From NCBI GenBank assembly GCA_001773695.1, contig MEXN01000007.1, forward strand, positions 115,204-179,203: DNA of 64,000 bases, in the 5' to 3' direction. A program made the position numbers and the translations under genes. This stretch comes from Candidatus Amesbacteria bacterium RIFCSPLOWO2_01_FULL_48_25. Its GTDB lineage: Bacteria; Patescibacteriota; Microgenomatia; CAZETR01; Amesbacteraceae. The notes beneath the pieces were generated by a model. That model searched no databases. It was given only the letters and a program-made list of their open reading frames with translations, and was not told where the DNA came from. Below are positions 2 to 23,600 of this stretch, piece after piece (within the stretch, counting starts at the first letter, position 1; each line of letters begins with the position of its first letter).

Positions 2-520
2 GGGGCTAAGCTGACGGTGGAAATCAGATCCCAGCATATAATTACCCAAAATGTGACGGTGGATGGAAACGGCGATTTTTCGGTGAGTGTGCCCAAAGAT
101 ATTGAGCCTGGAGAGCATACCATATCCATTTCTGCGGTAATAAACGGGGTTGTGAAAAAAGTGACCCGGACGTTTACTGTTTATGCTATCGGGGAAAGTA
201 ATTTGCCGGCGTTTTCGGCAACACCTTCGGCAACTTTAGTGCCCACTGCCAGGCCGTCCCCCACCTCCACGCCGACACCGACCATAAAGCCCTCCCCCAC
301 ACTGAAGCCGTCCCCGACTCCAACGACTGTGCCTGGAACTACCGTGACGCCCACACTTCGACCTACGGCTACTCCCACACTTGGCCCCACAATTGCCCCG
401 TCTCCGACTCCAATGCCGGTAATTCCTCCGACTGGGAATGATTTGCCGACTTGGATTGTAGTAATTGCTGGCATGCTATTGGTTATAGGCGGGACGCATT
501 TGTACCGAAAAGCGGGTTAG
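2..520 (+). CDS. 5'-truncated secreted/surface protein. Pro/Thr-rich stalk (PSPTPT repeats), then a C-terminal sortase-type sorting signal (IPPTGN + hydrophobic helix + YRKAG tail).
   Basis: Frame is open to the window edge. C-terminus reads ...PVIPPTGNDLPTWIVVIAGMLLVIGGTHLYRKAG*, which resembles LPXTG followed by a TM helix and a basic tail. Confidence 0.45.
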   Translation, partial: GAKLTVEIRSQHIITQNVTVDGNGDFSVSVPKDIEPGEHTISISAVINGVVKKVTRTFTVYAIGESNLPAFSATPSATLVPTARPSPTSTPTPTIKPSPTLKPSPTPTTVPGTTVTPTLRPTATPTLGPTIAPSPTPMPVIPPTGNDLPTWIVVIAGMLLVIGGTHLYRKAG

Positions 521-526
521 GCTACA

Positions 527-1087
527 ATGCGGCAAGTGAAAAAGCTGCGAGTGGGACTAGACTTCGACGGGGTTGTAGCCTACAACCCATTCAGAGTGGT
601 CAGGGCGCCTATTAAGTGGTTTAAGAGAGAAATTTTGGGGATCCGCCGCTTAACTTTTTTCGTGCCAAAAAACTGGTGGCAGAGATTTTTGTGGTCTATT
701 GTTCATGAGTCAAGTATTTGGCCAGCGACAGGAGTGGATCTTTTGAGGATTATGGCCCAAAACCCGCATTTTGAATTCCATTTGATTACGGCTAGGTTTG
801 GATTTTTGAAAGGCAACCTCTACAATTGGCTAGAAAAAAACGACTTAAAAGACATTTTTAAGACGATCAATGTTAACGAGAATTATGAACAGCCGCATGA
901 GTATAAGTTGAGGGTAGTGAAACAACTGCAACTAGATTATTACGTGGAAGATAATTTGGATGTGGTGGTTTTCTTACGGGATAAGGCGAGGGGGAAGGTT
1001 TTTTGGATTTATAACTTCATGGACGTGCGCCACCCGTATCCCCACAAATTCCCCTATCTGAAAAGGGCTCTGGAAGAAATTAAATGA
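527..1087 (+). CDS. HAD-superfamily-like hydrolase/phosphatase (motif I LDFDGVV); function unknown.
   Basis: N-terminal hhhDxDGV motif; 186 aa; first gene of the glycosylation cluster. Confidence 0.35.
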   Translation: MRQVKKLRVGLDFDGVVAYNPFRVVRAPIKWFKREILGIRRLTFFVPKNWWQRFLWSIVHESSIWPATGVDLLRIMAQNPHFEFHLITARFGFLKGNLYNWLEKNDLKDIFKTINVNENYEQPHEYKLRVVKQLQLDYYVEDNLDVVVFLRDKARGKVFWIYNFMDVRHPYPHKFPYLKRALEEIK

Positions 1088-2169
1088 GAGTTTTGTTTTC
1101 AATCACGTATTACACACCCTATGTCTCCGGACTGACAATCTATGTAAAAAGACTGGCCGAAGAACTGGTCAAGAGAGGCCATGAATGTACGGTATTGTGC
1201 ATGCGGCATGACAACAACTTGGCTGATTCGGAGACGATCAACGGCGTCAGAATAGTTAGAGCTAATCCCCTATTTAGAATCAGTAAGGGATTCATCTCCT
1301 GGGAGTGGGTAGTCAAATCCTGGTTGCTAACAAAATCGGCAGACGTAACGATTGTAAACTTGCCTCAGGCGGAAGGGTGGATGCCGGCCATGATGACAAG
1401 GAATAAAGTGGTCGCGATATACCACTGTGAAATCGACTTGCCGAATAGGTTCATCCAAGCAGTCCTGGAGGGACTGAACTGGCTAACCCTGGCAGTAGCT
1501 GACAAGGTGATCACTTATACAGAAGACTACGGCAAGCACAGCAGGTTGTTAAAAAGGTTTTTAAACAAAACTAAATATATCTACCCGCCGATTCCGATTC
1601 CTAAGACCACAGACTTGGGGATTAAAAAACCAAAAGGGGAGACGTGGATCGGGGTGGCGGCGAGATTGGCCCAAGAGAAGGGGATTGAATATCTAATCGG
1701 AGCGTTGCCACTGTTAAAAAATTGTAAGATTGTTGTTGCCGGGCCTGTGGAACCGGTGGGAGAAGAGGAATATAAAAATAGGATTATGAAATTAGTTGAA
1801 AAACATAAAGATAGGGTCAGATTCTTGGGGACGATTGATCCGGAAAAGATGGGCGGGTTTTATAAATTAATTGACGTCTTGGTATTACCGTCGGTAAATT
1901 CGACCGAGGCATTCGGCATGGTTCAGGTCGAGGCAATGATGATGGGGGTGCCAGTTGTCGCTACTGACTTACCGGGCGTCCGAGTACCGATTCTAAAAAC
2001 TGAAATGGGTGAAGTTGTGCCGATTAGAAATCCCCAAGCATTGGCAAGTGCCATTGTTAAGGTTTTAAAGACCGGAAGTTACTTTGCAAAACACAGGGAT
2101 GTCGTGCTAACCGAGTTTAATATTAACAAAACAACAGCTTCATGGGAAAATCTACTCAATGAGATTTAG
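1084..2169 (+). CDS. Glycosyltransferase family 4 (GT-B fold, retaining).
   Basis: C-terminal EAFGMVQVEAMMMGVPVVATDLPG (EX7E-type GT4 motif); 361 aa. Confidence 0.85.
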   Translation: MRVLFSITYYTPYVSGLTIYVKRLAEELVKRGHECTVLCMRHDNNLADSETINGVRIVRANPLFRISKGFISWEWVVKSWLLTKSADVTIVNLPQAEGWMPAMMTRNKVVAIYHCEIDLPNRFIQAVLEGLNWLTLAVADKVITYTEDYGKHSRLLKRFLNKTKYIYPPIPIPKTTDLGIKKPKGETWIGVAARLAQEKGIEYLIGALPLLKNCKIVVAGPVEPVGEEEYKNRIMKLVEKHKDRVRFLGTIDPEKMGGFYKLIDVLVLPSVNSTEAFGMVQVEAMMMGVPVVATDLPGVRVPILKTEMGEVVPIRNPQALASAIVKVLKTGSYFAKHRDVVLTEFNINKTTASWENLLNEI

Positions 2170-2817
2170 GCTCAATAGAATTTTTTATTACTTGAGGTCT
2201 GTTTTTGTGATATTAAAAGAGGTTCCGCCCAAATCATGGCTTGGTCTGTTAAGAAAGAGGGTTTATTTAAGACGCTTTGGGATCAGGCTGGACATTTTAA
2301 ACTTCCTGGACTTGTTGGTGATTAAAGAGGTCGTTGTAGATGACGAATATAGGATTGGCGGCCTAGTTGGCAAGGTCGATAAAAAGATAATTGATATAGG
2401 AGCTGGCCTGGGTGACTGTTCAATTTTAGTAGCGAAGCGTTTTCCCAACTCTATCATTTATTCATTTGAGCCAGATATAAACTATTTTAATTTGTTGAGG
2501 AATAACATTGACCTAAACGGAACTTATAATATTGTTCCCATAAACGCCGCCATTAGTTCATTGAACGACTTATTCACACACACACACACACTAACGTTGA
2601 TGTGTTGAAAATTGACTGTGAAGGTTGTGAGTTTTCAATATTAAAACGTGGATTTAGATATTTAAAAAGGATTAAGAAAATCACCATGGAATATCACAAT
2701 AAATTTGGAGATGTGGATAAGCTGGTCGATTTACTAAAGAAGGCTAAATTCAGCGTGATCCAAATACCTACAGTTGGAGTTCCACAAATAGGTCATATTT
2801 ATGCGTCGCTAAAATGA
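2159..2817 (+). pseudogene. FkbM-family SAM-dependent methyltransferase split by a frameshift inside a (CA)8 tract. Possibly phase-variable, or a sequencing artefact.
   Basis: ORF 2159-2608 carries the SAM motif IDIGAGLGDCSILVAKRF. ORF 2602-2817, read upstream in its own frame, gives NVDVLKIDCEGCE, the FkbM signature. The two frames switch exactly at cacacacacacacacac (2575-2591). Confidence 0.55.
2575..2591. repeat. (CA)8 dinucleotide microsatellite at the frameshift site of the FkbM methyltransferase.
   Basis: Sequence cacacacacacacacac read directly. Confidence 0.9.
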
Positions 2818-3566
2818 AAAAGTACCTAGAATACTATCTAAGATATCGCCCTTTGTTCTTGTCTTTAATCAGAGCCAAGGAGGCTTGGCTGTGGCAGAAA
2901 TATTTACCTCTTAAAAGGCCTGTTTTGGACTTGGGGTGCGGCGATGGGTTTTTTGCAAAAATTACTTTTGGTCACCTGGACATTGGGCTGGATGTCAAAG
3001 AGAGTCGGATTAATGAAGTTAAAGATGGGACTTATAAAAAATTGGTTGTTTACGATGGTCACAAATTTCCCCTAAAGTCGGGGTCGGTAAATACAGTGGT
3101 GAGTAACTGTGTTTTAGAACATATTGAAAATTTGGACGAGGTGTTAAAAGAAGTTTGGCGGGTGCTTAAGCCGGGAGGGGGTTTTTTGACGACAGTGATG
3201 GCCAAACCATGGGAAGAAAATTTGGCGGGAAGTCTACTTCTGGGTAATACATATAAAGCCTGGATGAAGAAAAAACAGGTGCACTTTAATTTATTAGACA
3301 GCGAAGAGTGGAATGGGGAGTTTAAAAAAGCGGGGTTTAAAATTGAGGAGGAAATCGGGTATTTATCCCCTGCAGCCTGTAAGCTAATAGATATCTGCCA
3401 TTATTTGTCCCTGCCGAGTCTGGTTTTATATACTCTGACTGGAAAATGGGTTTTGGGACTGGAACACAAGCTTTATCCAGTAGATTGGTTGGTTAAAGAA
3501 ATTACTGAAAACGCGGAATCGGAAAAATCCGGAGCTATTTTTTTTGAATTAGTTAAACGTGATTAA
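2814..3566 (+). CDS. Class I SAM-dependent methyltransferase (Methyltransf_11-like).
   Basis: Motif I VLDLGCGDGFFA; acidic motif II; 250 aa. Confidence 0.8.
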   Translation: MKKYLEYYLRYRPLFLSLIRAKEAWLWQKYLPLKRPVLDLGCGDGFFAKITFGHLDIGLDVKESRINEVKDGTYKKLVVYDGHKFPLKSGSVNTVVSNCVLEHIENLDEVLKEVWRVLKPGGGFLTTVMAKPWEENLAGSLLLGNTYKAWMKKKQVHFNLLDSEEWNGEFKKAGFKIEEEIGYLSPAACKLIDICHYLSLPSLVLYTLTGKWVLGLEHKLYPVDWLVKEITENAESEKSGAIFFELVKRD

Positions 3567-5148
3567 TCATTTGAAAAAATTGTATACGGTTTCTGGGTTT
3601 GTTGTTTTTGCGTGCATCTCGCTTTTGGACATGTTGGCTTTAAAGAGTCCTTTAGCTGGAAAGGCCGGGGTTGTTTTCTGGCTTTTATCGTTTTCTTATT
3701 TGGGAGTGCTTTGGGGATATTGTTTATTTACTATTCTTAGAAGGTTTAGGGCTCATATTGTTACGATTCTCTCGCTAGTGATAATGGTTGGGTTGGTTTT
3801 AATGAACACATCTAATCCTAGAAATGTAAGTGGAGAAACTACACAAGAGATAAATTGCGCCATGCGACTTTTGAAAACGACAGACCTTGGTTTTCATCAG
3901 ACTTGTCTTTTTGGCTATCCAGCCCGCCAGTTCTTTTTGCCCGCCCTTCCTTCAATCATCTGGGGGAGATCTCTTACTGCTTTGAATCTTGGGGGTGGTC
4001 TATACTTCGTTTTGGGAATAGTGATTTTTTCTTCTGGTGTCCTCAAATTTCTTGATAAGTCTGGGTCTGGCGACTTAATCAACGGCATACTAATGGCTTC
4101 AATCTATCACTTTCACTATTTCAATCATTTCATGTTTTATTACGAACAAAGCGTTTTTCCCCTCAGCCTGGGTCTTATTGTTGTCGGAACACTCTTGCAC
4201 TACTTGGCCACTCATAGCCAGATATTTTTGGTTCTGCTGGCTTTTTCGCTGCTATACCTCATATTTTCATACACTCCTAGCCTGGCATTAGTTTTTCTCG
4301 TTATTGGCGGTTTGTTATATCTTGTTTTCTCACCCAAACATAAGTGGAGTGAAAAGATTCTCTTAATGGCCTTGGTAAATTCGCTTTTATTTTCACTTCT
4401 ATTGTCAACAAAATTCAGGTCTGATATCAACATTTTCTCCCCTCAAACTAGAGGTTCGGAGGAGCTTGTTTCTGACCTCAAACAGGCTTTCTATCTCCTG
4501 GTATTTCAAAAAGGGGGGGTGGTTTTTGTGTCGCCCATGTTTAACTTTGTGTTTGTTTCTATTGTTGTTATGTCATTATTGTTTGTTTTTGGCAATAGAG
4601 TCTTTGTCATCGGATTGTGGATGGTGGCTACGATAGTTATTTCGGTGATTGCCAAGGGGTACACGTACTATGGTGCCGATTTCCGGTTGCATCGAGCCTT
4701 GGTAATAATTCCGATTTTTCTGAGTTTATTGGCGCTTGCGATTAAAAAGTTTCCCCGTAGGCACTTGTTCGTCTTGTGGCTCATTTTGTTGACCACTGGT
4801 TTAAGTGTCACGGGGACATATCTCAAGTCGAAATCTGTCAGCCAGCACTTTAATTTTATCCGCTGGATTCAGCATAATGTTCCGGTAACGAAACTGCAGA
4901 TGGCTCGTAATTTGTATGTAACCACCGGGCCCACTCGGATCGAAAATCTAATTTCGTTCAACGACACCCTCCAATATTTCATCCCCCGACTCACCGCGGT
5001 CACCAATTACGATTGTCAAACGCCAATTGAAAGTGGAGATTATTTAATTACCCTCGAAACTGAGTCCTGTGATCTCGAATCCTACAAAAAACTTGGCATG
5101 TTTCGAGCCAGCCCCGGAGCTGGCTTGGTGGTCTATGAAAAAAAATAG
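3559..5148 (+). CDS. Polytopic integral membrane protein (>=10 predicted TM helices); possible glycosyltransferase/polymerase of the envelope cluster.
   Basis: 529 aa, highly hydrophobic, no recognisable soluble domain; lies within the GT/MT cluster. Confidence 0.4.
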   Translation: MINHLKKLYTVSGFVVFACISLLDMLALKSPLAGKAGVVFWLLSFSYLGVLWGYCLFTILRRFRAHIVTILSLVIMVGLVLMNTSNPRNVSGETTQEINCAMRLLKTTDLGFHQTCLFGYPARQFFLPALPSIIWGRSLTALNLGGGLYFVLGIVIFSSGVLKFLDKSGSGDLINGILMASIYHFHYFNHFMFYYEQSVFPLSLGLIVVGTLLHYLATHSQIFLVLLAFSLLYLIFSYTPSLALVFLVIGGLLYLVFSPKHKWSEKILLMALVNSLLFSLLLSTKFRSDINIFSPQTRGSEELVSDLKQAFYLLVFQKGGVVFVSPMFNFVFVSIVVMSLLFVFGNRVFVIGLWMVATIVISVIAKGYTYYGADFRLHRALVIIPIFLSLLALAIKKFPRRHLFVLWLILLTTGLSVTGTYLKSKSVSQHFNFIRWIQHNVPVTKLQMARNLYVTTGPTRIENLISFNDTLQYFIPRLTAVTNYDCQTPIESGDYLITLETESCDLESYKKLGMFRASPGAGLVVYEKK

Positions 5149-5166: not shown

Positions 5167-6813
5167 CTAAATTTTTTGTCTGCCAAAAATGATGGCTTTG
5201 GGGTGGTCGTAGACGGAAAGGGTTTCGTCGGCATAATCGTCGACAAAACTGATGCCCATTTGAGAGCAGTCCTGGAGAGGGCGGGCGGCTTTGCCATAGC
5301 TTATTCCAGGCGAGGTAAGACAGAGGTTAAACCCGGGAATGGGGATATTGGGGCGCGAAGTGAATTGGGCGATAGGGACAAATCCCAGCGAGCCATCGAA
5401 GAGCGATTTATAAAATTGATTGGTGGTGGGGTACTGCTCGGGGACAGTCATTATTGATCCATAAAGCCGGTTGCTCGAAAGCACAATATAGTCTACTTGC
5501 GACAGCCGAGATTGAATCAGTGACCATTTTTGGGGAGAGTCGGGGTCGTAGAGGGGGAATTCTACAAACTGAAAGTTGGGATGTCCTCCCCAGGGCAAGC
5601 AGTCGTCCCAATGCTCGCAGGAGATACGGCTGCCGGGGGGTAGATTTTCAGCTATCCACCGCGAAGCTTCTATCCGAGAGTGAGGGCGGGTATAAATACT
5701 TGTGAAAGAAAAAGGCCAAACTAAAATGAGAATAACGTATAACGTATTACGTATTACGGAGGAGGGGTGCAATATTTTGTAAGCCATAAATCCAGCAAAG
5801 ATAGCCAAAAATGGATAGACAGGATAGAAATAACGCAGGGGCTGGGCGTACTGGAAACTTTGATAGGTGAAAAGCAATAAGGCCCAGAAAAGGGCTAAAA
5901 AAGTGGGGGGGTGACGGTAGTGATAAATCAAAAGGTAAAAAAGACCAAAGATAACAAGCAAGCCCAGAGGAAGGCCTAGTCCCCAGAGGAGATTGTTTTC
6001 CAGAGAGTACCAGGAGGGGATATGGGTCCATTGAACTCCGGGGGGGTAATAGATATAGGGTTTATTGAACGAATTGAGCTGCTGCCAGTTGGCCAAGACT
6101 TTGGGGTTGAGGTGAAAGTTGTCTTGAAAAAGATAAGGCTGAGCGAGCCGAACAGTCAAGTAAAGAGTAATAGTGAATAGTAATAGAGAAAGGATCTTGG
6201 GCCGGGAAAAGATAAAACCCAGAGCGATGACGGGCAGGAATAAAAGGGCGGAGATTTTGGCAGCGACGGCTAATCCGAAAGCGATACCTAATAGTAAATA
6301 GCGTCTAGTGACTAGTGTATAGAAGGTAAGCGACAAGAAAAAGACGAGGAATGAATCGACGGCGAAGAAGTGAGAAAGCTGGATGGAGAGGACTGAAGAG
6401 GCGTAACCTAGTGCCCCCAAAACGGCGATAACACGCTTGCCAAACAGGCGAAAAGAAATCAAATAAACCAAAATCAATGTTCCCAGGTCAAAAACGGCGG
6501 AAATTGCCCGGCCGACGAGAGTAAGCTGGTTGTAGTCCCCTTTGCCTAAAAATTCGGCGATGAACTTGACGAATATTACTGGAAAAGTGCCGTAGACGTA
6601 GAAGCCGTAGCCGATGTTGTGGGGATTGAGGGGGGAGGTGGGCGTATTGAGATAATGAGAGAGATTTCGGGGCCAAGACATGGCATTGGCCACCATTGTC
6701 AGGAAGCGCTCGTCGGGATGGAGATGGCCGTTTTGATCCCAATTAAGGCCATAGAGACGAAGGCCAGCGGCCAAAAGGAAAATGACGGCCAAAACTTTTA
6801 GGTTGCGGGGCAT
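5167..6813 (-). CDS. GT-C family glycosyltransferase, GT39/ArnT/PMT-like (polyprenyl-phosphate-sugar dependent).
   Basis: N-terminal TM followed by the GLNWDQNGHLHPDERFL loop (DE-containing first periplasmic loop typical of ArnT/PMT); 548 aa polytopic. Confidence 0.6.
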   Translation of the reverse strand: MPRNLKVLAVIFLLAAGLRLYGLNWDQNGHLHPDERFLTMVANAMSWPRNLSHYLNTPTSPLNPHNIGYGFYVYGTFPVIFVKFIAEFLGKGDYNQLTLVGRAISAVFDLGTLILVYLISFRLFGKRVIAVLGALGYASSVLSIQLSHFFAVDSFLVFFLSLTFYTLVTRRYLLLGIAFGLAVAAKISALLFLPVIALGFIFSRPKILSLLLFTITLYLTVRLAQPYLFQDNFHLNPKVLANWQQLNSFNKPYIYYPPGVQWTHIPSWYSLENNLLWGLGLPLGLLVIFGLFYLLIYHYRHPPTFLALFWALLLFTYQSFQYAQPLRYFYPVYPFLAIFAGFMAYKILHPSSVIRNTLYVILILVWPFSFTSIYTRPHSRIEASRWIAENLPPGSRISCEHWDDCLPWGGHPNFQFVEFPLYDPDSPQKWSLIQSRLSQVDYIVLSSNRLYGSIMTVPEQYPTTNQFYKSLFDGSLGFVPIAQFTSRPNIPIPGFNLCLTSPGISYGKAARPLQDCSQMGISFVDDYADETLSVYDHPKAIIFGRQKI

Positions 6814-8378
6814 ATGTGGGAAACATTATAAATACTGACTCCGGTCGTAGGGTTGTGATATTGGGGAGAAAAATTGTTTTTCCACAAGTTCCAGTTGGGG
6901 AAGATAAAATTTTCTGGGCGGTTGTTGAGCTCGACAAAAGAGATATTATTCCGGTGTAGCAATCGGCAGGCGGTAATGGAATCCGGGGCACGGTAAATAG
7001 CTAACGCCTGATACTCGCGGGTGGCTTGGTCGTAGCCAAATGACCAGGTGAAGTAGGAATAGCCGTTGAATATTTTACGGCCCGCTAGTGACGCGGGGTG
7101 GTAAAACCAAGTGCTGTTTAAGACAATGGAATCGGGTAGAGTATTTTTTTGGAAATATTGGGCGTCAGGGTTGACGGTAATATCCGGTAAGTGGAAATAA
7201 AAATCATTTTTGACGGGGAAGAAATCTACAATTCCACCCAGAACCAGGAGGGGGAGCAGAAGCAAAAGAGGTTTAATTTTAACCAGGACGTAGGCCGTGA
7301 ACATGGATCCGATGATGAGGAAGAAATTGAAAAATTTATGGTTGTTGATAATGTCGGTAGAAAATTTAATAAGATTGGGGGCAATAAATAGGACGAGCAG
7401 AGGGAAGATTAACTTCCTGGCCTGTTTGGGAGCCATTAAAAATCCCAAGGGGATGAATACGAGATGCAGGCCAATGTTTAGAAACCAGAAGCGCAAAAAG
7501 TTCGACCAGATAACGGGGGGCTTGGTAAGGAATCCCAAATACCAGGCGAGTTGAGAAGTGTCGTTGGATATCAAACGGCTAAAAAACAGCCAGGGAACGG
7601 CGCCGACGGCCGAAAGCAGCAATGGTGTCCTGAGCTTGGGCTGGAAGATAAAATAACTGGCGGCAAATAAGGCGACGATGGCTAGGGCCGCTTGGTTGAG
7701 AAGGACTAGTGAGCCGGCGATAAAGCCAAATAAATATAGGTAGCGGCGATGGTTAAATTGCAATAAATAGATTAAAAGCAAAGCTATAGCAAAGGATAGA
7801 CCTAGGTGGCGCTGGTTAGTGTAAATATTTAGGTTCCAGAAGGCAGTAATTGCCGAACCGTTCCAAGGGCCGAAAGAAGGGAATTGAGTAAGAGATGCTA
7901 GATTAGAGATGCTAGATATTAGATTAAAATTATTGGATTTCAAATAATCCAGCCAGGAGAGGGAGGAGTTGAAGAGAAAAAAAATGACAGATAAGTAAGC
8001 GGTTAGGCGGCTTGTGAATAGACGATAGGTAAAGAGCCAAATCATTATTGTCAGGAGAAAAAATCCAATGGCGCTATTTAGATTCAGGGCCCAGTCTATA
8101 GGCATCCCCAACCGTTCAAAGATGCCGGCTACGAAGTAAAAAAGGAAGTGGTAACGAGTCGGTTCGCCGGGGAATAGGGGGGATTGGGGAGGCCAGTTTG
8201 ATCCCAAAGAGAAAGAGCGAATTTGAGGTAAGTGGCTCCCAAAATCGCTCCAGTACTTGGCAGATATGAGAATATTGTGAGTCGTGGTGTCATAAGACAA
8301 GGTATGCCACATGAGCCAGAAGGAGAAAAAAAGAAGTATGAGGAAGAACGTATAACGTATAACGAGATATTTTGGCAT
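6798..8378 (-). CDS. Polytopic membrane protein, GT-C-like (paralogous organisation to the preceding GT39-like gene).
   Basis: 526 aa, many TM helices. Shares the ACGTATAACGTAT 13-mer and hydrophobic N-terminal architecture with the neighbouring gene. Confidence 0.4.
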   Translation of the reverse strand: MPKYLVIRYTFFLILLFFSFWLMWHTLSYDTTTHNILISAKYWSDFGSHLPQIRSFSLGSNWPPQSPLFPGEPTRYHFLFYFVAGIFERLGMPIDWALNLNSAIGFFLLTIMIWLFTYRLFTSRLTAYLSVIFFLFNSSLSWLDYLKSNNFNLISSISNLASLTQFPSFGPWNGSAITAFWNLNIYTNQRHLGLSFAIALLLIYLLQFNHRRYLYLFGFIAGSLVLLNQAALAIVALFAASYFIFQPKLRTPLLLSAVGAVPWLFFSRLISNDTSQLAWYLGFLTKPPVIWSNFLRFWFLNIGLHLVFIPLGFLMAPKQARKLIFPLLVLFIAPNLIKFSTDIINNHKFFNFFLIIGSMFTAYVLVKIKPLLLLLPLLVLGGIVDFFPVKNDFYFHLPDITVNPDAQYFQKNTLPDSIVLNSTWFYHPASLAGRKIFNGYSYFTWSFGYDQATREYQALAIYRAPDSITACRLLHRNNISFVELNNRPENFIFPNWNLWKNNFSPQYHNPTTGVSIYNVSHICPAT

Positions 8379-8399
8379 TTTTTAATTATAATCTACACT

Positions 8400-10490
8400 G
8401 TGGCGCAGGATTTAGCGACAATTTTGTGGTGGTGGGTAACTTTATTGTTGGTGGGGATAGCAGGTTGGCCATGGTCAAAAAAAATATTTAGGGGTTGGCC
8501 GGACCGTGGTTACTTAATGGCTAAGGCGTTGGGACTGGCAATAGTTACATATGTAATTTGGATCGGGGGAACAATTGGCGTATTTCCATTTATCCAGGCC
8601 TCAACTTGGCTAGTGGTATTGGGGGTGTGGTATTTGGGAAGACGGGTGAGTCGCGGGGAGAAAGGAATAAGTTGGAAGATGATTTTTTGGGAAGAGGGGG
8701 TTTTTTTGGCGGCCTTGATACTTTGGAGTTGGGTAAAGGCACATGAGCCGACGATTAATGGGTTGGAAAAGTTCATGGATTACGGATTTACGAGATCGAT
8801 TTTGCAGGGAAAGTATTTTCCGCCCCTGGATATGTGGTTTGCCGGCAAACCCATCAACTACTATTATTTCGGACACTTGATGATGGCGGCGCTAACCCGG
8901 TTGTCGGGGATGTCACTTGGGTACACTTTTAACTTGATGTTGGCGACTATTTTTGCCATGTGCCTAACCCAGTCGTATGCTATTGGTCGACAGCTTTTGA
9001 ATAAGCTGCCCATAGCATGGGCCATTGGAGGAGCATTGCTAATTGCGTATCTGGTAACACTGGCTGGCAACCTGCACACGATTTATGCCTTTACGTCAGG
9101 GTATGCCGGGCGGGAAGATAATCCCCCGCCATTTTGGGATTTGGAGTTTACATCTGAGGTGGGAAAAAACTACTGGTACCCCAATGCCACCCGGTTTATC
9201 CCGTGGACGATCCACGAATTTCCCAGTTACTCGTTTGTGGTATCGGATGTGCATGGGCACGTGTTGAGTATCCCCCTGGCTTTGTTGGCTATTGCCCTGT
9301 TGGTGAACATGTTTGGCCGGTTGCGGGAAGAAATAAATTGGAAGGAATACGGTTTGTATGGCTGGATCTCGGGCCTCATGTTTATGACGAATGCGCTGGA
9401 TGGAATTATATATGCCGGGCTATTCGCTGTACTGCTCATCGCCCGAAATTTACAATTTTCAATTTCCAATTCACAATTAATTTCTAAATTTCTAAATTTT
9501 CAATTTTTCAAACCGCTGATAGTCGTTGGGATGGTGTTTGCGGTGACAATATCGCCGTTTGTGGCCAGGTTCGAGCCGTTTGTGTCGGGGGTGGCGGTAA
9601 ATTGTCCGCCGGAACAGTTGGCTAACTCAAAAATAGGACCTATAATTTTCGAGGGGGCAGAGAAGTGTCAAAAATCTCCCCTGTGGATGATGTTGGTTTT
9701 GTGGGGGTTTTTCGTCTATTGCGGCTGGTGGTATATAGCTGGAGCCAGAGAAAAGGAATTGTCTGTTGAATCGAAGTTGTTGGGAGCATTTCTGGTGTTT
9801 TCGCTACTGTTAATAACATTTCCGGAGTTTTTTTACTTTAAAGATATTTACCCGTTGCATTTTCGCAGCAACACCATGTTCAAGCTGGGATACCAGGCGT
9901 TTATGCTGTCGGGAATAGCTTCGGGGTATGCCATAACTTACGAGCTATGGCGCAAAAAGCGGGTGGTGTGGCTAACGGGAGCGGTGATATTGGCGTTACT
10001 CGTGATGATTTATCCCAAATTCGCAGTCAACTCATACTTTGGAAACTTAAAAACCTACCAATCAATCTGGGGGTTGGGGTGGTTGTCTTCCCGCTATCCT
10101 GACGACGCCCAGGCCATCGAATGGCTGGAAAAAACGTTGCCGGTGGGGGAACAACCGGTGGTATTGGAAGCAAATGGAGATAGCTACACAGATTTCAACC
10201 GAATATCGGCATTTTCCGGTTTGCCGACTGTGGCTGGGTGGACGGTGCACGAATGGTTGTGGAGGGGGGGGTATGAGCCGATTGCTCTGAGAGCGGAAGA
10301 GGTAAAAAGAGTGTACGAGTCCATCGACATAGAGGAGACTAAGCTACTCCTTAATAAATATGACGTGAGATATATCGTGGTGGGATCAATGGAAAGGCAG
10401 AAATATCCCCAGCTGGACGAAGAAAAGATTAAAAAACTGGGAAGCACGGTGTTTACTACTAATACTTTGGTGATTTACCAAGTTATTTGA
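8400..10490 (+). CDS. Large polytopic membrane protein (~700 aa) with a big extracytoplasmic C-terminal domain; DUF2298/AftD-like candidate glycan polymerase/transferase.
   Basis: The ORF track opens at 8232 but overlaps the minus-strand gene. A TATAAT at ~8385 followed by GTG at 8400 suggests the later start. Contains the motif PINYYYFGH and 12+ TM helices. Confidence 0.45.
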   Translation: MAQDLATILWWWVTLLLVGIAGWPWSKKIFRGWPDRGYLMAKALGLAIVTYVIWIGGTIGVFPFIQASTWLVVLGVWYLGRRVSRGEKGISWKMIFWEEGVFLAALILWSWVKAHEPTINGLEKFMDYGFTRSILQGKYFPPLDMWFAGKPINYYYFGHLMMAALTRLSGMSLGYTFNLMLATIFAMCLTQSYAIGRQLLNKLPIAWAIGGALLIAYLVTLAGNLHTIYAFTSGYAGREDNPPPFWDLEFTSEVGKNYWYPNATRFIPWTIHEFPSYSFVVSDVHGHVLSIPLALLAIALLVNMFGRLREEINWKEYGLYGWISGLMFMTNALDGIIYAGLFAVLLIARNLQFSISNSQLISKFLNFQFFKPLIVVGMVFAVTISPFVARFEPFVSGVAVNCPPEQLANSKIGPIIFEGAEKCQKSPLWMMLVLWGFFVYCGWWYIAGAREKELSVESKLLGAFLVFSLLLITFPEFFYFKDIYPLHFRSNTMFKLGYQAFMLSGIASGYAITYELWRKKRVVWLTGAVILALLVMIYPKFAVNSYFGNLKTYQSIWGLGWLSSRYPDDAQAIEWLEKTLPVGEQPVVLEANGDSYTDFNRISAFSGLPTVAGWTVHEWLWRGGYEPIALRAEEVKRVYESIDIEETKLLLNKYDVRYIVVGSMERQKYPQLDEEKIKKLGSTVFTTNTLVIYQVI
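9453..9512. repeat. AT-rich CAATTT/AAATTT in-frame insertion (encodes NLQFSISNSQLISKFLNFQFFK) inside the membrane-protein gene.
   Basis: Sequence aaatttacaattttcaatttccaattcacaattaatttctaaatttctaaattttcaatttttcaaa. The 24-mer aatttacaattttcaatttccaat is identical at 59471-59494. Confidence 0.7.
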
Positions 10491-11535
10491 GAAGGCTGGA
10501 CACAAAGTCGTATATGGCGTGGGGGTCGTCGCCCTTGGGGACCAGGACCCATTGATTATCGTACTTGGGAGAAACCGGCGGGTGATAAATGTGGTCCGGT
10601 TCAATAAGAGCAGTGGTGGTTTGGGGATTTTTCCGGGCGGATATAGCTAGTCTGCTCAAGGCTATGTATTGGTCACTAGTAATGTCTGTCGTAGTTTGGG
10701 TAAGAAGGATGGTGGCAATTTGGCGGTAGACGGCTGGCTTTGTAAGAATACCTTGGGAGAAGAGTTTGGCCTTGATCGCAGAGATAACTTGGCTTTGGCG
10801 GCGGGAGCGGGCGAAGTCGGTGCCTTCGGTAAGATCGGCAGAATAGCGGGAGCGGACATATTTGAGGGCGGTGCTGCCATCCATGTGTAGAAGACCTTGA
10901 TCAAAAGAGATCGTTTCGTAACGACACTTATAATCAACATCTCCTTCGCACAAATCAGTTTCACGTCCAGCTATGGGATAGCGGTCGTCAACGAAAGATT
11001 TTTCTATTTGGACATTTATACCGCCTAAAGTGTCTATAATTTGAGCGAATGTGGCGAAATCAAAAACGACGGCGAAATCTACAGGTTCACCTAATATTTC
11101 TGAGACTGATGATTTGGCCAGGAGCAGCCCGCCTGATGTCCCGGCTTTGACTCGGCCGTAGTGATAGGTGGAATTAATCTTGGCTCGCATTGAGGGAACC
11201 CATAAATCGCGGGGAATAGAAAGCATGACGGTGGGCTGGCGGTAGCGGGAAACCGACAAAAAGATTATGGAGTCGGTAAGATCCGACCCCTGGTGATTTT
11301 CCCCACCAATTCCCAGGATAAGAAAGTTGGTCCGGCCGGCGTGATTGGGAATAGAACTGGAGGCGACGGCACGAATTAGCTGGTAAGTGAGGTTGGCGGG
11401 AGCGCGCAGGACAAAAACTGTCCCAGTTATCAGCACAATTGCGACTACTAGCAACAGCGCCCTGGCCAAATAGACCCGGGAGAGTAATTGGCGTTTGATC
11501 CGATTGAAGAATGAAGAGAGTCTGGTAAGCTGCAT
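10483..11535 (-). CDS. LytR-CpsA-Psr (LCP) family cell-envelope glycopolymer transferase.
   Basis: N-terminal TM anchor, then NFLILGIGGENHQGSDLTDSIIFLSVS and SIPRDLWV motifs characteristic of LCP. Confidence 0.85.
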   Translation of the reverse strand: MQLTRLSSFFNRIKRQLLSRVYLARALLLVVAIVLITGTVFVLRAPANLTYQLIRAVASSSIPNHAGRTNFLILGIGGENHQGSDLTDSIIFLSVSRYRQPTVMLSIPRDLWVPSMRAKINSTYHYGRVKAGTSGGLLLAKSSVSEILGEPVDFAVVFDFATFAQIIDTLGGINVQIEKSFVDDRYPIAGRETDLCEGDVDYKCRYETISFDQGLLHMDGSTALKYVRSRYSADLTEGTDFARSRRQSQVISAIKAKLFSQGILTKPAVYRQIATILLTQTTTDITSDQYIALSRLAISARKNPQTTTALIEPDHIYHPPVSPKYDNQWVLVPKGDDPHAIYDFVSSLLK

Positions 11536-11537
11536 TA

Positions 11538-13388
11538 GTGGATATTTTGAAGAGCCTAAATCCCCAACAACAAAAAGCGGTGGCTTTCAGTGAGGGGCCC
11601 TTGCTTATTTTAGCAGGAGCGGGAAGTGGAAAGACAAAGGTATTGACTCACCGAGTGGCATATCTCGTTCGCAATAAAAACGTGAGACCTGAAAATATTT
11701 TGCTTTTGACGTTTACAAATAAGGCGGCCGGGGAAATGATGAAGAGGATAATGGGCTTGTTGGGGGCGGAATTTAGAGGATATGGTGGGACTTTTCATAG
11801 TTTTTGTGCCAAGATTTTACGAAAATACGCTGGTTGGGCTCGATTGGATCCCAACTTTGTGATTTTTGACGAGGCGGACCAACTAGACACGGTAAAGCAG
11901 GCCATGGTAGCTGTGGGAGTGGATATAAAATCGGTCAGGCCGGGGTCGGTACTGGGAGCTATATCGGGCGCCAAAAACGAACTAATAACTCCGGCCGAAT
12001 ATGCCGGTTTTGCCAGAGGAAACTTTTCCCAAACTGTAGCCCGAGTATATTTGGCTTACCAACAGTTGCTTCGGCGATATAAAGCTTTGGATTTTGATGA
12101 CTTGTTGGTAGAAACAGTCAGGCTGTTGCAAATCGAGCCGGAGGTGAGGGAGAAATTAGAGGAAAATTTCAAGTTTATATTAGTAGACGAATATCAAGAT
12201 ACGAATAAGGCGCAGTATGAAATTACGAAAGTGCTCTCTAAAAAACACGGGAACTTGACTGTTGTCGGAGACGCGGCACAGGCGATTTACTCGTGGCGGG
12301 GGGCAAATTATCGAAACCTATTGTATCTTAAACAAGACTTCCCCACTCTCACGACTCTAAATTTGGAGCAAAACTACCGGTCTACCCAGATAATTTTATC
12401 GGCAGCCAATGAAGTGGTATCTAAAAACAAAAATCATCCTATATTGAACTTGTGGACGGATAGAGGTGGAGGAGAAAAAGTAACTTTTTACGAGGCAGAG
12501 AGTGAGTACGATGAAGCCCAATTTGTCATAGGACAAATTGCAACAACCAAATATTCGGAATTTGCGGTGCTATACCGGACAAATGCGCAGTCGCGGGTGT
12601 TGGAGGAGGCGTTTTTGCATTCAGGGATCCCTTACTCACTGGTTGGGGGGGTGAGATTTTACGAAAGAAAAGAGATAAAGGACGTGATTGCGTATTTGCG
12701 TTTGGTTTTAAACCCCGAGGATGAAATTTCCAGGAAGAGGGCAGAAAAATTGGGAAAGGGCAGACTACAGAAATTTACAAATTCCAATTTACAATTTTCA
12801 AATAAACTTACCTTGGACATTTTGGATGAGGTGTTGAAAATTACGGGATATTTGGAACAATTTGATGAAATGAATGAGGAAGACGCGGCCAGATTGGAAA
12901 ACATAAAAGAGCTGCGAAGCGTGGCGCAGGAATTTCCTAAATTGCCTGAACTTTTAGAACAGATTGCACTAACCGAAAAAGAAGCGTCTAGGAGTCAGCG
13001 TCTAGCGTCTAGCGGAGAAGGGGCTGTAACTCTGATGACACTACACGCGGCGAAGGGGCTGGAGTTTAAACGTGTGTTTATGGTGGGAATGGAGGAAGGG
13101 TTATTCCCCCACTCCAGATCGCTTATGGATCCCGAACAAATGGAGGAGGAACGACGCTTGTGTTATGTGGGGATGACCCGGGCGATGGATAACTTGTATC
13201 TGACTTACGCCCGGAGGAGGTTATATTTCGGGTCGCGATCCAATAATCCGGTGTCTCGGTTTTTGGCGGATATTCCGGAGGAGTTAATCGAAGTTAACCA
13301 AGAGATTAAGAAGGCTAAGAGATTAAGCTTGGAGCAAAATTGGGGTTTTGATGAAGAGGGAAATTGGCAGTGGACGCCAGACGATTAA
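11538..13388 (+). CDS. pcrA: UvrD/PcrA/Rep-family ATP-dependent DNA helicase.
   Basis: Walker A GPLLILAGAGSGKTKVLT, helicase motifs TFH, VDEYQDT, LEQNYRST, and a C-terminal domain. Carries in-frame AT-rich (12771-12810) and AGAGATTAAG (13302-13333) insertions. Confidence 0.85.
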   Translation: MDILKSLNPQQQKAVAFSEGPLLILAGAGSGKTKVLTHRVAYLVRNKNVRPENILLLTFTNKAAGEMMKRIMGLLGAEFRGYGGTFHSFCAKILRKYAGWARLDPNFVIFDEADQLDTVKQAMVAVGVDIKSVRPGSVLGAISGAKNELITPAEYAGFARGNFSQTVARVYLAYQQLLRRYKALDFDDLLVETVRLLQIEPEVREKLEENFKFILVDEYQDTNKAQYEITKVLSKKHGNLTVVGDAAQAIYSWRGANYRNLLYLKQDFPTLTTLNLEQNYRSTQIILSAANEVVSKNKNHPILNLWTDRGGGEKVTFYEAESEYDEAQFVIGQIATTKYSEFAVLYRTNAQSRVLEEAFLHSGIPYSLVGGVRFYERKEIKDVIAYLRLVLNPEDEISRKRAEKLGKGRLQKFTNSNLQFSNKLTLDILDEVLKITGYLEQFDEMNEEDAARLENIKELRSVAQEFPKLPELLEQIALTEKEASRSQRLASSGEGAVTLMTLHAAKGLEFKRVFMVGMEEGLFPHSRSLMDPEQMEEERRLCYVGMTRAMDNLYLTYARRRLYFGSRSNNPVSRFLADIPEELIEVNQEIKKAKRLSLEQNWGFDEEGNWQWTPDD

Positions 13389-13401: not shown

Positions 13402-14295
13402 ATGAATAGCGATGATTGGAACAAAAATGCTGGGCATCCGATGCAATCTTTCGAGTGGGGGGAGTTTAGGGAGAAGGTGGGGAATAAAATATCGAGGGTT
13501 GTCGGTGACAAGCAATATCAGATAATTTGGAGTCGGATTAAGCCTTTTGATTTGTGGTTTGGATATTGCCCGATGTCTGGGATGCCGAATGAGAAAGATA
13601 TTAAGATACTAAGAGATGAAGCGATTAAGAATAATGGGCTCGGGATAAGATTTGAGCCTAATGAGATGAAGGGCGCGAAAATACCGGAAAGGATGGTGTC
13701 GGGAAGACATTTATTTAAGCCCAAGACTTTTCAGATAGATTTGACCTTGGGTGAAGATGAATTATTAAATAGAATGCATCCGAAGTGTAGATATAATATT
13801 CGGCTGGCACAAAAGCACGGAGTAAAAATTGGGGAAGGAGATATAGAAAGTTATGTGAAATTGATATTTGGAAAGACAGTAAAAAGACAAAAAATTTATT
13901 CACACTCGGAAAAATATCATTGGGAATTGGCACAGCTGGGATGGGTTCATTTGTTTAAGGCAGAATATAAAAATAAAGTGATTGCGAGCTGGATGGTTTT
14001 TGCCTGGAAAAATTTTGTTTACTATGCATATGGTGCATTCGATGATGACTACAAAAACTTGATGGCACCTGTTTTGGGTCTTTGGGAAATAATTAGGTGG
14101 GGAAAAAGAGAAGGATTCAAAACTCTGGATTTGTGGGGGGCCGAAGAGGGGCGCGGATTTAGCAGGTTTAAACAGCAGTTCGGACCAGAACTGGTAGAAA
14201 TGGTCGGAACGTATGATTTACCAATTAATTTTTTGCATTGGCCGTTTAGAATGGCGGAGGAAATAAGATGGAAGATCTTGCGGATATTGAAGTAG
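13402..14295 (+). CDS. FemAB/FemX-family aminoacyl-tRNA-dependent peptidyltransferase (peptidoglycan interpeptide bridge).
   Basis: HPKCRYNIRLAQKHGV (FemABX RYNIRKA motif); ~300 aa; start taken at MNSDDW (13402) directly after the pcrA stop. Confidence 0.65.
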   Translation: MNSDDWNKNAGHPMQSFEWGEFREKVGNKISRVVGDKQYQIIWSRIKPFDLWFGYCPMSGMPNEKDIKILRDEAIKNNGLGIRFEPNEMKGAKIPERMVSGRHLFKPKTFQIDLTLGEDELLNRMHPKCRYNIRLAQKHGVKIGEGDIESYVKLIFGKTVKRQKIYSHSEKYHWELAQLGWVHLFKAEYKNKVIASWMVFAWKNFVYYAYGAFDDDYKNLMAPVLGLWEIIRWGKREGFKTLDLWGAEEGRGFSRFKQQFGPELVEMVGTYDLPINFLHWPFRMAEEIRWKILRILK

Positions 14296-18287: not shown

Positions 18288-18299
18288 GTCCCAATAATA

Positions 18300-18353
18300 C
18301 CTCACCTCTAACCCCTCTCCTAAATTTAGGAGAGGGGAACCAAAGGGGTGAGG
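18300..18353. repeat. GC-rich nested inverted-repeat element (copy R1): CCTCACC-tctaa-CCCCTCTCCT-aaattt-AGGAGAGGGG-aaccaaa-GGGGTGAGG. It sits in the divergent helicase/rnhB spacer and supplies a Shine-Dalgarno sequence to both genes.
   Basis: Both arm pairs read directly. GGGGTGAGG lies 12 nt before the rnhB ATG, and its complement GAGGTGAGG lies 12 nt before the helicase ATG. Confidence 0.7.
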
Positions 18354-23558: not shown

Positions 23559-23600
23559 ACAGTTGATCAGTTAATCAGTTTGCCAGTTAAGTTATTAAGT

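What the first reader, a model, noticed from the sequence alone, without database searches (positions are those of the whole stretch)
2159..2817. FkbM methyltransferase in the glycosylation cluster frameshifted exactly at a (CA)8 microsatellite
The SAM-binding half (2159-2608) and the catalytic NVDVLKIDCEGCE half (the 2602-2817 frame) are both intact. They are out of frame by one nucleotide across cacacacacacacacac at 2575-2591. Dinucleotide tracts of this length are classic slipped-strand switches, and the gene sits in a surface-glycan modification cluster. So this may be an ON/OFF phase-variable glycan methyltransferase rather than a dead gene. A sequencing or assembly indel is the alternative explanation.
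Basis: partly seen in the sequence, partly recalled or inferred. Interest (0 to 1): 0.55.

Follow-up and report, generated by a model that had tools for sequence, protein, structure and literature searches.

The report
Methyltransferase gene broken at a CA-repeat
A sugar-methylating enzyme gene in an uncultured groundwater bacterium (Candidatus Amesbacteria) is switched off by one extra copy of a CA repeat; the break is real and probably recent, but there is no evidence yet that the bacterium flips it on and off.

Summary
A perfect (CA)8C tract at 2575-2591 separates two intact halves of one FkbM-family methyltransferase gene. It is the only dinucleotide run longer than 4 units in 64 kb. Removing exactly one CA unit gives a 218-aa ORF that passes the TIGR01444 and PF05050 cut-offs.

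It is not an assembly error. All 22 other same-species contigs that I fetched, from ENA, JGI, Logan and NCBI, carry (CA)8. One carries (CA)9, which is also out of frame.

A 75%-identical sister species, present in one of the same samples, has a perfect (CA)7 and an in-frame gene in the same GT4–FkbM–methyltransferase operon. A 48% relative has only (AC)4.

The part after the frameshift shows no further decay. All invariant residues are kept, dN/dS is 0.28, and the relative-rate test shows no lineage acceleration.

No in-frame allele of this species exists among about 15 billion public proteins.

Best reading: a recent slipped-strand +1-unit frameshift, fixed OFF in a clonal Candidatus Amesbacteria population. 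Reversal is mechanistically possible, but switching is not shown. I put true phase variation at about 0.3. It is a new member of a known kind and of moderate interest.

The parts
2575..2591 (+). Perfect (CA)8C dinucleotide tract. In the in-frame (CA)7 state it encodes T-H-T-H-T. Here it carries one unit too many.
   Evidence: Searches show the tract and its significance. Searches give tract lengths in related contigs: (CA)8 in 22, (CA)9 in L013, (CA)7 in L011/L027 and (AC)4 in L026.
2159..2608 (+). ORF1: N-terminal 139 codons of the FkbM-family methyltransferase (SAM-binding motif DIGAGLGD, FEP), then the tract, then 5 out-of-frame codons (LTLMC) and a premature TGA at 2606-2608.
   Evidence: TIGR01444 scores 45.1 bits on residues 77-140. 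The conserved N-terminus M[KR]F..R..YY in relatives confirms the ATG at 2159. The product is identical to P0100 (NCBI OGC98499.1, OGD03347.1, HJZ05301.1, 'hypothetical protein', Candidatus Amesbacteria).
2592..2817 (+). C-terminal 74 codons of the same gene, in the -1 frame (NVDVLKIDCEGCE...MEYH...GHIYASLK, stop 2815-2817). This frame is open with no further lesion. Gene callers report it as a 70/71-aa ORF starting at GTG 2602 or TTG 2605.
   Evidence: PF05050 and TIGR01444 C-terminal motifs match. All invariant columns D147-G211 are retained. dN/dS is 0.28, and the relative-rate test gives 5 versus 7 changes. The ORF2 product is on record on 19 contigs.
1084..2169 (+). Upstream GT4-family glycosyltransferase. 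Its stop overlaps the FkbM start by 11 nt, so the two are in one operon.
   Evidence: Glycos_transf_1 99 bits, Glyco_transf_4 51 bits. The synteny is conserved in L011 and L026.
2814..3566 (+). Downstream class I methyltransferase (Methyltransf_11/23). Its ATG overlaps the FkbM stop (ATGA), so its translational coupling depends on ribosomes reading the C-terminal FkbM frame.
   Evidence: The synteny is conserved in L011, L027 and L026.
3559..5148 (+). 529-aa polytopic membrane protein, the last gene of the same-strand run. It has no Pfam hit.
5167..6813 (-). PMT_2/PMT-like (GT-C) membrane glycosyltransferase, part of the envelope-glycosylation context.
   Evidence: PF13231 28.0 bits, PF02366 27.4 bits.
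8232..11535 (.). DUF2298 membrane protein (8232-10490, + strand) and an LCP (LytR-CpsA-Psr) family protein (10483-11535, - strand). This is further cell-envelope glycopolymer context.

Best explanation
The region is a single FkbM-family, SAM-dependent methyltransferase gene. It belongs to a short subfamily of about 205-221 aa and sits in a GT4–FkbM–methyltransferase envelope-glycan operon of a Candidatus Amesbacteria (Microgenomates/Patescibacteria) bacterium.

The ancestral coding tract (CA)7 encodes Thr-His-Thr-His-Thr, at the end of a helix and in the loop just before strand beta-4 (the LKIDCEG motif). The tract gained one CA unit by slipped-strand mispairing during replication. The resulting 2-nt insertion shifts the frame. 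Translation stops 5 codons later, and the catalytic C-terminal third is no longer joined to the SAM-binding part. The enzyme is therefore off.

This OFF allele is real, recent and fixed at consensus level in a clonal population that has been sampled many times. Because the lesion lies in a mutable repeat, loss of one unit or gain of two units would restore the gene. No such revertant has been observed.

Shown: the tract, the frames, the family assignment, the (CA)7 in-frame orthologue, uniform (CA)8 across assemblies, one (CA)9 variant, and the absence of further decay.

Inferred: the slippage mechanism, loss of enzyme activity, glycan methylation as the substrate class, and the possible polar effect on downstream genes.
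For: 1. One CA unit fewer gives a 218-aa ORF that passes the curated FkbM cut-offs.

2. The orthologue in a 75%-identical relative (P0001/P0103; loci L011 and L027, two independent assemblies) has a perfect (CA)7 and reads ...LFTHTHTDIDVLKIDCEGCE. It aligns without gaps to the (CA)7 reconstruction and sits in the same operon.

3. A 48% relative (L026) encodes FTHTNAA with only (AC)4. The tract therefore grew by whole in-frame steps before the +1-unit event.

4. All 22 other same-species contigs, from several samples and assembly sources, carry (CA)8. They are 100% identical to the window nearby.

5. L013 differs from the window over 2.5 kb only by one extra CA, giving (CA)9. Apart from one SNP and differences at contig ends or N runs, the tract is the only site that differs.

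6. There is no further decay. All 23 invariant alignment columns are retained, including 13 after the frameshift. dN/dS is 0.31 for the N-terminal half and 0.28 for the C-terminal half. The relative-rate test on the C-terminal half gives 5 window-specific versus 7 relative-specific changes.

7. An AlphaFold model of P0001 (pLDDT 90.9) is a class I methyltransferase fold. THTHT lies at the helix 119-126 / loop / beta-4 130-135 junction.

8. SSR mutability rises steeply with tract length (PMC3315296). Six or more dinucleotide units is the cut-off used in the field for candidate slippage loci (PMC6321876).
Against: - Assemblies give only the majority allele, so minority in-frame cells cannot be excluded.
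- Many of the assemblies probably derive from overlapping read sets of one aquifer study. The number of truly independent observations is therefore smaller than the number of contigs.
- dN/dS of about 0.3 is higher than in the neighbouring genes (0.08-0.13). The gene may have been under weaker constraint, or intermittently off, for longer than 'very recent' implies.
- The window protein has Lys at a position where the four other short-subfamily members have Gly (G196K).
- Loss of activity is inferred, not measured.
Confidence: 0.6

Rival explanations
1. It is a working contingency locus. The (CA)n tract is maintained as a high-frequency, reversible ON/OFF switch ((CA)7 or (CA)10 ON; (CA)8 or (CA)9 OFF) for methylation of a surface glycan. 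This would give the episymbiotic bacterium surface heterogeneity, for example against phage or for host attachment. The sampled population simply happens to be mostly OFF.
For: - The tract exceeds the 6-unit cut-off used for candidate phase-variable dinucleotide repeats (PMC6321876).
- It sits inside the ORF of a surface-glycan modification gene, which is the classic target class. SAM-dependent methyltransferases are frequent in Campylobacter phasomes. An FkbM-family ORF with a (G)12 tract is noted in H. influenzae strain 86-028NP (PMC2651432).
- Three tract lengths occur at this locus: 7 in the sister species, and 8 and 9 in this one.
- The tract is still a perfect repeat in both lineages.
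- The post-frameshift half shows purifying selection and no decay.
- ON and OFF species co-occur in JGI sample 3300025313.
Against: - No ON allele of this species was found in any public assembly, by homology search or by exact look-up.
- About 47 contigs carry (CA)8 against one with (CA)9. That one is a 2.5-kb contig whose extra unit could be PCR stutter or a low-coverage artefact.
- It is the only dinucleotide SSR of this kind in 64 kb. So there is no sign of a multi-locus 'phasome'.
- The purity of the tract in both lineages is not significant, given the low synonymous divergence of this block (dS about 0.29).
- Eight dinucleotide units may mutate at less than 1e-5 per generation, which is too slow for efficient switching (caveat in PMC6321876).
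Confidence: 0.3
2. Sequencing or assembly artefact: the true genome has (CA)7 and an intact gene.
For: Dinucleotide repeats are prone to PCR stutter. The gene is otherwise perfectly intact.
Against: 22 further contigs from different samples and assembly sources all have (CA)8. In one of the same samples, the sister species' (CA)7 was assembled correctly. In the roughly 5.9 kb these contigs share with the window, the homopolymer runs (G7, T8, A8) show no indel differences.
Confidence: 0.02
3. Recoding: full-length enzyme is still made from the (CA)8 allele. This would happen by RNA-polymerase slippage on the repeat (dropping one CA in the mRNA) or by a ribosomal +2/-1 shift on the repeat.
For: A dinucleotide repeat allows perfect re-pairing after a 2-nt slip. 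A hairpin starts about 10 nt downstream of the tract (-19.5 kcal/mol, z = -2.15).
Against: - There is no X XXY YYZ slippery heptamer. A -1 slip on ACA/CAC codons cannot re-pair.
- The same hairpin is present in the in-frame relative L027, where it is not significant (z = -0.30). It is absent in L026. It is therefore a by-product of the conserved LKID...EFSIL coding sequence.
- The in-frame orthologue shows that the ancestral state needs no recoding.
Confidence: 0.03
4. Split enzyme: ribosomes terminating at TGA 2606-2608 reinitiate at the overlapping TTG 2605 (TTGA) or GTG 2602. The 149-aa and 70/71-aa fragments then assemble into an active two-piece methyltransferase.
For: All gene junctions in this operon are overlapping start/stop pairs (ATGA at 1084 and at 2814). 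The new stop creates the same geometry (TTGA). Reinitiation would also keep the downstream genes coupled.
Against: The break removes NVDV(L) from strand beta-4 and adds a foreign LTLMC tail, within the core sheet of the fold. The split arose from a simple repeat expansion, and no relative has it. No Shine-Dalgarno sequence is visible before 2602 or 2605.
Confidence: 0.05

Closest known systems
SSR (slipped-strand) translational phase variation of surface-glycan modification genes in host-adapted bacteria. Examples are the poly-G tracts in Campylobacter capsule, LOS and flagellar-glycan methyltransferases (PhasomeIt survey, PMC6321876).
   Same: An intragenic perfect simple repeat above the accepted length cut-off. 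Changes in unit number toggle the reading frame. The target is a SAM-dependent methyltransferase in a glycan cluster. The gene is otherwise intact.
   Different: - The repeat is a dinucleotide (CA)n, not poly-G or a tetranucleotide.
- The organism is a free-living or episymbiotic groundwater Patescibacterium. Phase variation is not described for this group in the searched library.
- Only OFF alleles are seen in this species.
- There is no evidence of many such loci in the genome.
H. influenzae 86-028NP ORF ntHI0694: an FkbM-family methyltransferase with a (G)12 tract at its 5' end (PMC2651432).
   Same: The same enzyme family, associated with a hypermutable repeat inside the ORF, and a presumed role in methylating a surface glycan.
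   Different: It has a mononucleotide tract at the 5' end rather than a dinucleotide tract two-thirds of the way into the gene. It is a longer FkbM form. The paper draws attention to the tract but reports no switching, so it is likewise only a candidate.
Dinucleotide-repeat phase variation: the (TA)9-11 tract between hifA and hifB of H. influenzae (cited in PMC2651432).
   Same: Dinucleotide unit; slipped-strand mechanism; tract length of about 8-11 units.
   Different: That tract is in a promoter, where it alters -10/-35 spacing and hence transcription. It is not in a coding frame.
Ordinary SSR-caused frameshift pseudogenes in prokaryotic coding regions (survey in PMC3315296).
   Same: An indel of one repeat unit at a coding SSR disrupts the frame. 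SSR indel variability rises steeply with tract length.
   Different: Here nothing else in the gene has decayed, and the tract is much longer than is typical for coding dinucleotide SSRs. The next-longest dinucleotide run in this window is 4 units.

Membership tests
FkbM-family methyltransferase (TIGR01444 / Pfam PF05050 Methyltransf_21) | The whole-protein score is above the curated cut-offs of the family models. | tested here: met
   The (CA)7 reconstruction scores 71.2 bits on TIGR01444 (cut-off 37.7) and 40.4 bits on PF05050 (cut-off 22.7). ORF1 alone scores 45.1 on TIGR01444. ORF2 alone is below the cut-offs.
FkbM-family methyltransferase (TIGR01444 / Pfam PF05050 Methyltransf_21) | SAM-binding motif I (D-x-G-A-x-x-G) and an acidic residue after strand beta-2 (F-E-P). 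| tested here: met
   D79, G81, G85 and E104 are invariant in a 10-sequence alignment and present in the window.
FkbM-family methyltransferase (TIGR01444 / Pfam PF05050 Methyltransf_21) | C-terminal signature L-K-I-D-x-E-G-x-E followed by E-Y-H. | tested here: met
   D147, L149-G155, E157 and E177-H179 are present, but they are encoded in the -1 frame after the tract.
FkbM-family methyltransferase (TIGR01444 / Pfam PF05050 Methyltransf_21) | Class I (Rossmann-like) SAM-methyltransferase fold. | tested here: met
   Tested on the 75%-identical in-frame relative P0001, not on the window protein itself. The AF2 model has pLDDT 90.9 and pTM 0.88. Foldseek top hits are class I SAM methyltransferases at E about 1e-9.
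FkbM-family methyltransferase (TIGR01444 / Pfam PF05050 Methyltransf_21) | About 35-residue beta-hairpin insert between beta-3 and beta-4, present in typical members of 250-300 aa. | tested here: not met
   TIGR01444 profile positions 69-111 are unmatched. The insert is absent from the window protein and from P0103, P0003, P0004 and P0005. This is a short subfamily, not a lesion of this gene.
FkbM-family methyltransferase (TIGR01444 / Pfam PF05050 Methyltransf_21) | Methyl transfer to a defined (glycan) substrate. | not testable with these tools
   A glycan substrate is inferred only from the operon context.
SSR-mediated phase-variable (contingency) locus | A perfect repeat tract at or above the length associated with hypermutability (6 or more dinucleotide units). 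| tested here: met
   (CA)8. The cut-off is from PMC6321876.
SSR-mediated phase-variable (contingency) locus | The tract is positioned so that changes in unit number switch expression ON and OFF. | tested here: met
   In-silico tract lengths of 5-11 units: 7 and 10 give a full-length ORF, and the others truncate it.
SSR-mediated phase-variable (contingency) locus | Tract-length polymorphism within the species. | tested here: inconclusive
   22 fetched contigs have (CA)8 and 1 (L013) has (CA)9. A single short contig could be stutter or a low-coverage artefact.
SSR-mediated phase-variable (contingency) locus | Both ON and OFF alleles are found in the same species or population. | tested here: not met
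   There is no in-frame product at 90% identity or more among the hits. The exact (CA)7 and (CA)10 products are absent from about 15 billion proteins. The cluster members are only (CA)8 and (CA)9 products. This holds at consensus level only.
SSR-mediated phase-variable (contingency) locus | High-frequency reversible switching within a clonal lineage. | not testable with these tools
   This needs read-level or culture data.
Decaying pseudogene | Additional disabling mutations or relaxed selection after the first lesion. | tested here: not met
   There is no second stop or frameshift. All invariant residues are kept. dN/dS of the C-terminal half is 0.28. The relative-rate test gives 5 versus 7 changes.

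The most novel reading that the evidence does not exclude
The (CA)n tract is a genuine contingency switch. If so, it would be the first simple-sequence-repeat phase-variable locus described in the Candidate Phyla Radiation/Patescibacteria. It would toggle methylation of a surface glycan in an ultra-small, probably episymbiotic groundwater bacterium. The sister species would have been caught ON and this population caught OFF. That would mean bet-hedging by hypermutable repeats is not confined to host-adapted pathogens.
Probability: 0.27. Interest if true: 0.6.

Novelty: new member of a known kind. Interest (0 to 1): 0.35.

Why it matters
If the tract really switches, surface-glycan heterogeneity generated by hypermutable repeats would extend to CPR bacteria. 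These bacteria cannot be cultured, and their cell-surface biology (host attachment, phage escape) is largely unknown. The many public read sets from this one aquifer would make the idea directly testable.

If it does not switch, the locus is still a clean natural example of a repeat-expansion knock-out caught before any further decay. The ancestral (CA)7 allele is preserved in a co-occurring sister species. It also warns annotators that the two 'hypothetical proteins' called here are halves of one FkbM methyltransferase.

Tried and rejected
1. A DNA pattern scan of metagenome contigs, using both flanks and a variable gap, was meant to capture every tract length. It returned only the sister-species contig already in hand. 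The JGI contigs of this species are evidently not in that collection, so it gave no new alleles.

2. The search for related loci on genome contigs with the subfamily alignment returned only distant FkbM homologues of 37% identity or less, mostly Chloroflexota and Acidobacteriota, plus a few Patescibacteria. It returned neither the source genome nor close relatives, so it gave no tract comparison.

3. Foldseek against the PDB gave generic class I methyltransferases, with CbiT, MnmM and O-methyltransferases at the top, and no FkbM-specific match. This is useful only for the fold.

4. Recoding signal: the hairpin downstream of the tract is also present in the in-frame relative, where it is not significant. 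Rejected.

5. Selection for tract purity: the perfect repeat in both lineages is not significant, because local synonymous divergence is low.

6. Dating the frameshift from strain diversity was impossible, because all contigs are 100% identical around the gene.

7. The literature search for 'Patescibacteria' together with 'phase-variable' found no paper that holds both terms. In the three-term search, none of the 15 listed papers mentions 'Candidate Phyla Radiation'.

8. I considered whether the missing profile positions 69-111 meant an internal deletion at the tract. This is rejected, because four intact relatives lack the same segment.
Full report
**1. The observation**

Window 2575-2591 reads CACACACACACACACAC, that is (CA)8 plus C.
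- ORF1 (2159-2608, 149 aa) ends ...AAISSLNDLFTHTHTLTLMC*.
- The frame one base behind it reads ...HTHTHTNVDVLKIDCEGCEFSIL...GHIYASLK* up to 2817.
- I rebuilt the gene with 5 to 11 CA units. Only (CA)7 (218 aa) and (CA)10 (220 aa) give a continuous ORF. The lesion therefore equals exactly one repeat unit.

The tract is not a chance feature.
- The next-longest dinucleotide runs in the 64-kb window have 4 units.
- 300 first-order Markov simulations never exceeded 6 units.
- The expected number of (CA)8/(TG)8 tracts is about 1e-5.
- Dinucleotide-preserving shuffles produced no (CA)6.

**2. What the gene is**

The (CA)7 reconstruction passes the curated thresholds of both FkbM models: TIGR01444 at 71.2 bits against a cut-off of 37.7, and PF05050 at 40.4 against 22.7.

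TIGR01444 matches in two stretches and skips profile positions 69-111, which is right at the tract. This is not a deletion peculiar to this gene. Four intact relatives (P0103 219 aa, P0003 221 aa, P0004 205 aa, P0005 219 aa) lack the same hairpin segment of about 35 residues that longer FkbM proteins carry. The gene therefore belongs to a short FkbM subfamily.

An AlphaFold model of the 75%-identical relative P0001 (pLDDT 90.9) is a class I SAM-methyltransferase fold. It places T-H-T-H-T at the C-terminal end of helix 119-126 and in the loop before strand beta-4 (130-135, IDVLKI).

The gene sits in a run of translationally overlapping genes: a 186-aa ORF, GT4 glycosyltransferase, FkbM, a Methyltransf_11 enzyme and a 529-aa membrane protein. 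Next to this run lie PMT_2/GT-C-like membrane proteins, DUF2298, an LCP (LytR-CpsA-Psr) protein and FemAB proteins. The 'surface-glycan cluster' context is therefore supported by family hits. The substrate itself is only inferred.

**3. Source organism**

ORF1 is identical to P0100. NCBI holds this sequence as OGC98499.1, OGD03347.1 and HJZ05301.1, annotated 'hypothetical protein [Candidatus Amesbacteria bacterium ...]'. That places it in the Microgenomates group of the Patescibacteria. Sample names such as ANAN16-1_SAMN0384243x suggest, from my own knowledge, the Rifle aquifer metagenomes of Anantharaman et al. 2016.

**4. Artefact or real?**

I fetched 23 other contigs of this species through the truncated products: L001-L010 and L013-L025. 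They come from ENA (k141-named contigs and ANAN16 scaffolds), JGI, Logan and one NCBI MAG.
- 22 carry (CA)8.
- L013 (ERZ27254845, 2,516 bp) carries (CA)9.
- The cluster table lists about 47 contigs with the (CA)8 product and one with the (CA)9 product.
- Around the gene, these contigs are 100% identical to the window. The exceptions are one SNP at 5220, differences at one contig end in a Pro/Thr-rich repeat, and an N run.

The frameshift is therefore real, and the population is essentially clonal. An assembly error is excluded for practical purposes.

**5. Where the frameshift came from**

The closest orthologue (75% aa identity) is known from two assemblies, L011 and L027.
- It is in frame and has a perfect (CA)7: TTC ACA CAC ACA CAC ACC GAC.
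- It lies in the same GT4–FkbM–methyltransferase arrangement.
- It co-occurs with the window species in JGI sample 3300025313: L011 on Ga0209431_10022118 and L015 on the 412-kb contig Ga0209431_10000004.

A 48% relative (L026) has only TTT ACA CAC ACC AAC, that is (AC)4 encoding THT.

The simplest history is as follows. The tract grew in frame from (AC)4 to (CA)7 in the ancestor of the two Amesbacteria lineages. It then gained one unit in the window lineage, breaking the frame. It gained a further unit in the population behind L013. Changes by whole repeat units at a perfect repeat are the signature of slipped-strand mispairing. SSR indel variability rises steeply with tract length (PMC3315296).

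**6. Dead gene or switch?**

Against decay:
- There is no second lesion.
- All 23 invariant alignment columns are kept, 13 of them downstream of the frameshift.
- dN/dS against the relative is 0.31 before the tract and 0.28 after it.
- With P0003 as outgroup, the C-terminal part has 5 window-specific and 7 relative-specific replacements.

The frameshift is therefore recent relative to the divergence of the two species, or else selection acts intermittently.

Against a demonstrated switch:
- No in-frame allele of this species appears among the hits to 5.8 billion cluster representatives.
- The exact (CA)7 and (CA)10 products, each tried with three possible N-termini, are absent from about 15 billion proteins. 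The separate ORF2 product is present on 19 contigs.
- The only variant is a second OFF state, on one short contig.
- The window holds no other long dinucleotide repeat.
- The tract meets the field's in-silico criterion of 6 or more dinucleotide units. The same paper warns that such tracts may mutate too slowly for efficient switching (PMC6321876).

I therefore rate 'recent slippage knock-out, fixed OFF, potentially reversible' at about 0.6. I rate 'true contingency switch' at about 0.3.

**7. Other rivals**

Recoding:
- There is no slippery heptamer.
- A hairpin about 10 nt downstream (z = -2.15) also forms in the in-frame relative, where it is not significant, and is absent in L026. It reflects the conserved LKID...EFSIL codons.

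Split enzyme:
- The premature stop creates a TTGA overlap at 2605-2608, like the ATGA junctions elsewhere in the operon. Reinitiation could occur there and might preserve coupling to the downstream methyltransferase.
- However, the break cuts strand beta-4 of the core sheet, and no relative is split.

Both rivals remain at a few per cent.

**8. Comparison with what is known**

The mechanism matches SSR-driven translational phase variation of glycan-modifying genes. Known cases include the Campylobacter poly-G methyltransferases (PMC6321876), an FkbM-family ORF with a (G)12 tract in H. influenzae 86-028NP, and the (TA)n hifA/hifB promoter switch (PMC2651432).

The differences are the repeat type and position, the organism group, and the absence of an observed ON allele. 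No paper in the searched library holds both 'Patescibacteria' and 'phase-variable'.

I file the feature as follows:
- It is a member of the FkbM family. The sequence and fold criteria are met, within a short subfamily.
- It is only a candidate contingency locus. The structural criteria are met. The ON/OFF polymorphism criterion was tested and not met at consensus level.

**9. Verdict**

The feature is a new member of a known kind, of moderate interest (0.35). The decisive test is simple: count (CA)n lengths in the raw reads of the many public samples that contain this organism.

Noticed in passing
window 1-64000: There is a very strong, uniform GC skew on the + strand, about +0.22 (G 18,013 versus C 11,410, with A roughly equal to T). 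It appears in every 4-kb bin (range 0.12 to 0.32), although the long ORFs lie on both strands. Correspondingly there are 11 runs of G>=7 and no runs of C>=7.
   Followed up: partly
window 2095-2680 versus L011/L027: This block is 82-93% identical in DNA (mostly 87-93%) to the sister species. It covers the first ~520 nt of the FkbM gene, including the tract. The flanking GT4 and Methyltransf_11 genes and the FkbM 3' end are only 54-80% identical over most of their length. dS is 0.29 in the block against 1-2 in the neighbours. This may be a recent recombination tract between two Amesbacteria species found in the same sample.
   Followed up: partly
window 23553-23590, 51615-51650, 58359-58391, 61370-61398: Short tandem arrays of an 8-mer, CAGTTGAC / CAGTTNNN (3-4 copies; perfect at 61370-61398), recur at four separate places. 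Their function is unknown.
   Followed up: no
window 13300-13327, 13595-13630, 25659-25687, 50875-50909: Tandem copies of the 8-mer AAGAGATT recur at four sites.
   Followed up: no
window 17-520 (+): This 167-aa ORF has a long Pro/Thr/Ser-rich linker (TPSPTPT-like repeats) and a C-terminal hydrophobic segment. It lies immediately upstream of the glycosylation genes and could be a glycosylated surface protein. It has no Pfam hit. Seven differences from the window at one contig end (L002) fall in this repeat.
   Followed up: no
window 2605-2608: The premature stop produced by the frameshift overlaps a TTG codon (TTGA). This has the same geometry as the ATGA start/stop overlaps at 1084-1087 and 2814-2817. 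Termination-reinitiation could therefore limit the polar effects of the frameshift on the downstream methyltransferase and membrane protein. This is an inference only.
   Followed up: no
window 196th codon of the reconstructed gene (about 2746-2748): The window lineage has Lys where the four other short-subfamily members have Gly (K[SA]GF becomes KAKF). It is the only window-specific change at a subfamily-conserved position after the frameshift.
   Followed up: partly
window 11538-13388 (+) and 15450-18305 (-): Two UvrD-family helicase genes lie close together. One carries a C-terminal PD-(D/E)XK nuclease domain (AddA-like). They flank a pair of FemAB-family genes.
   Followed up: no
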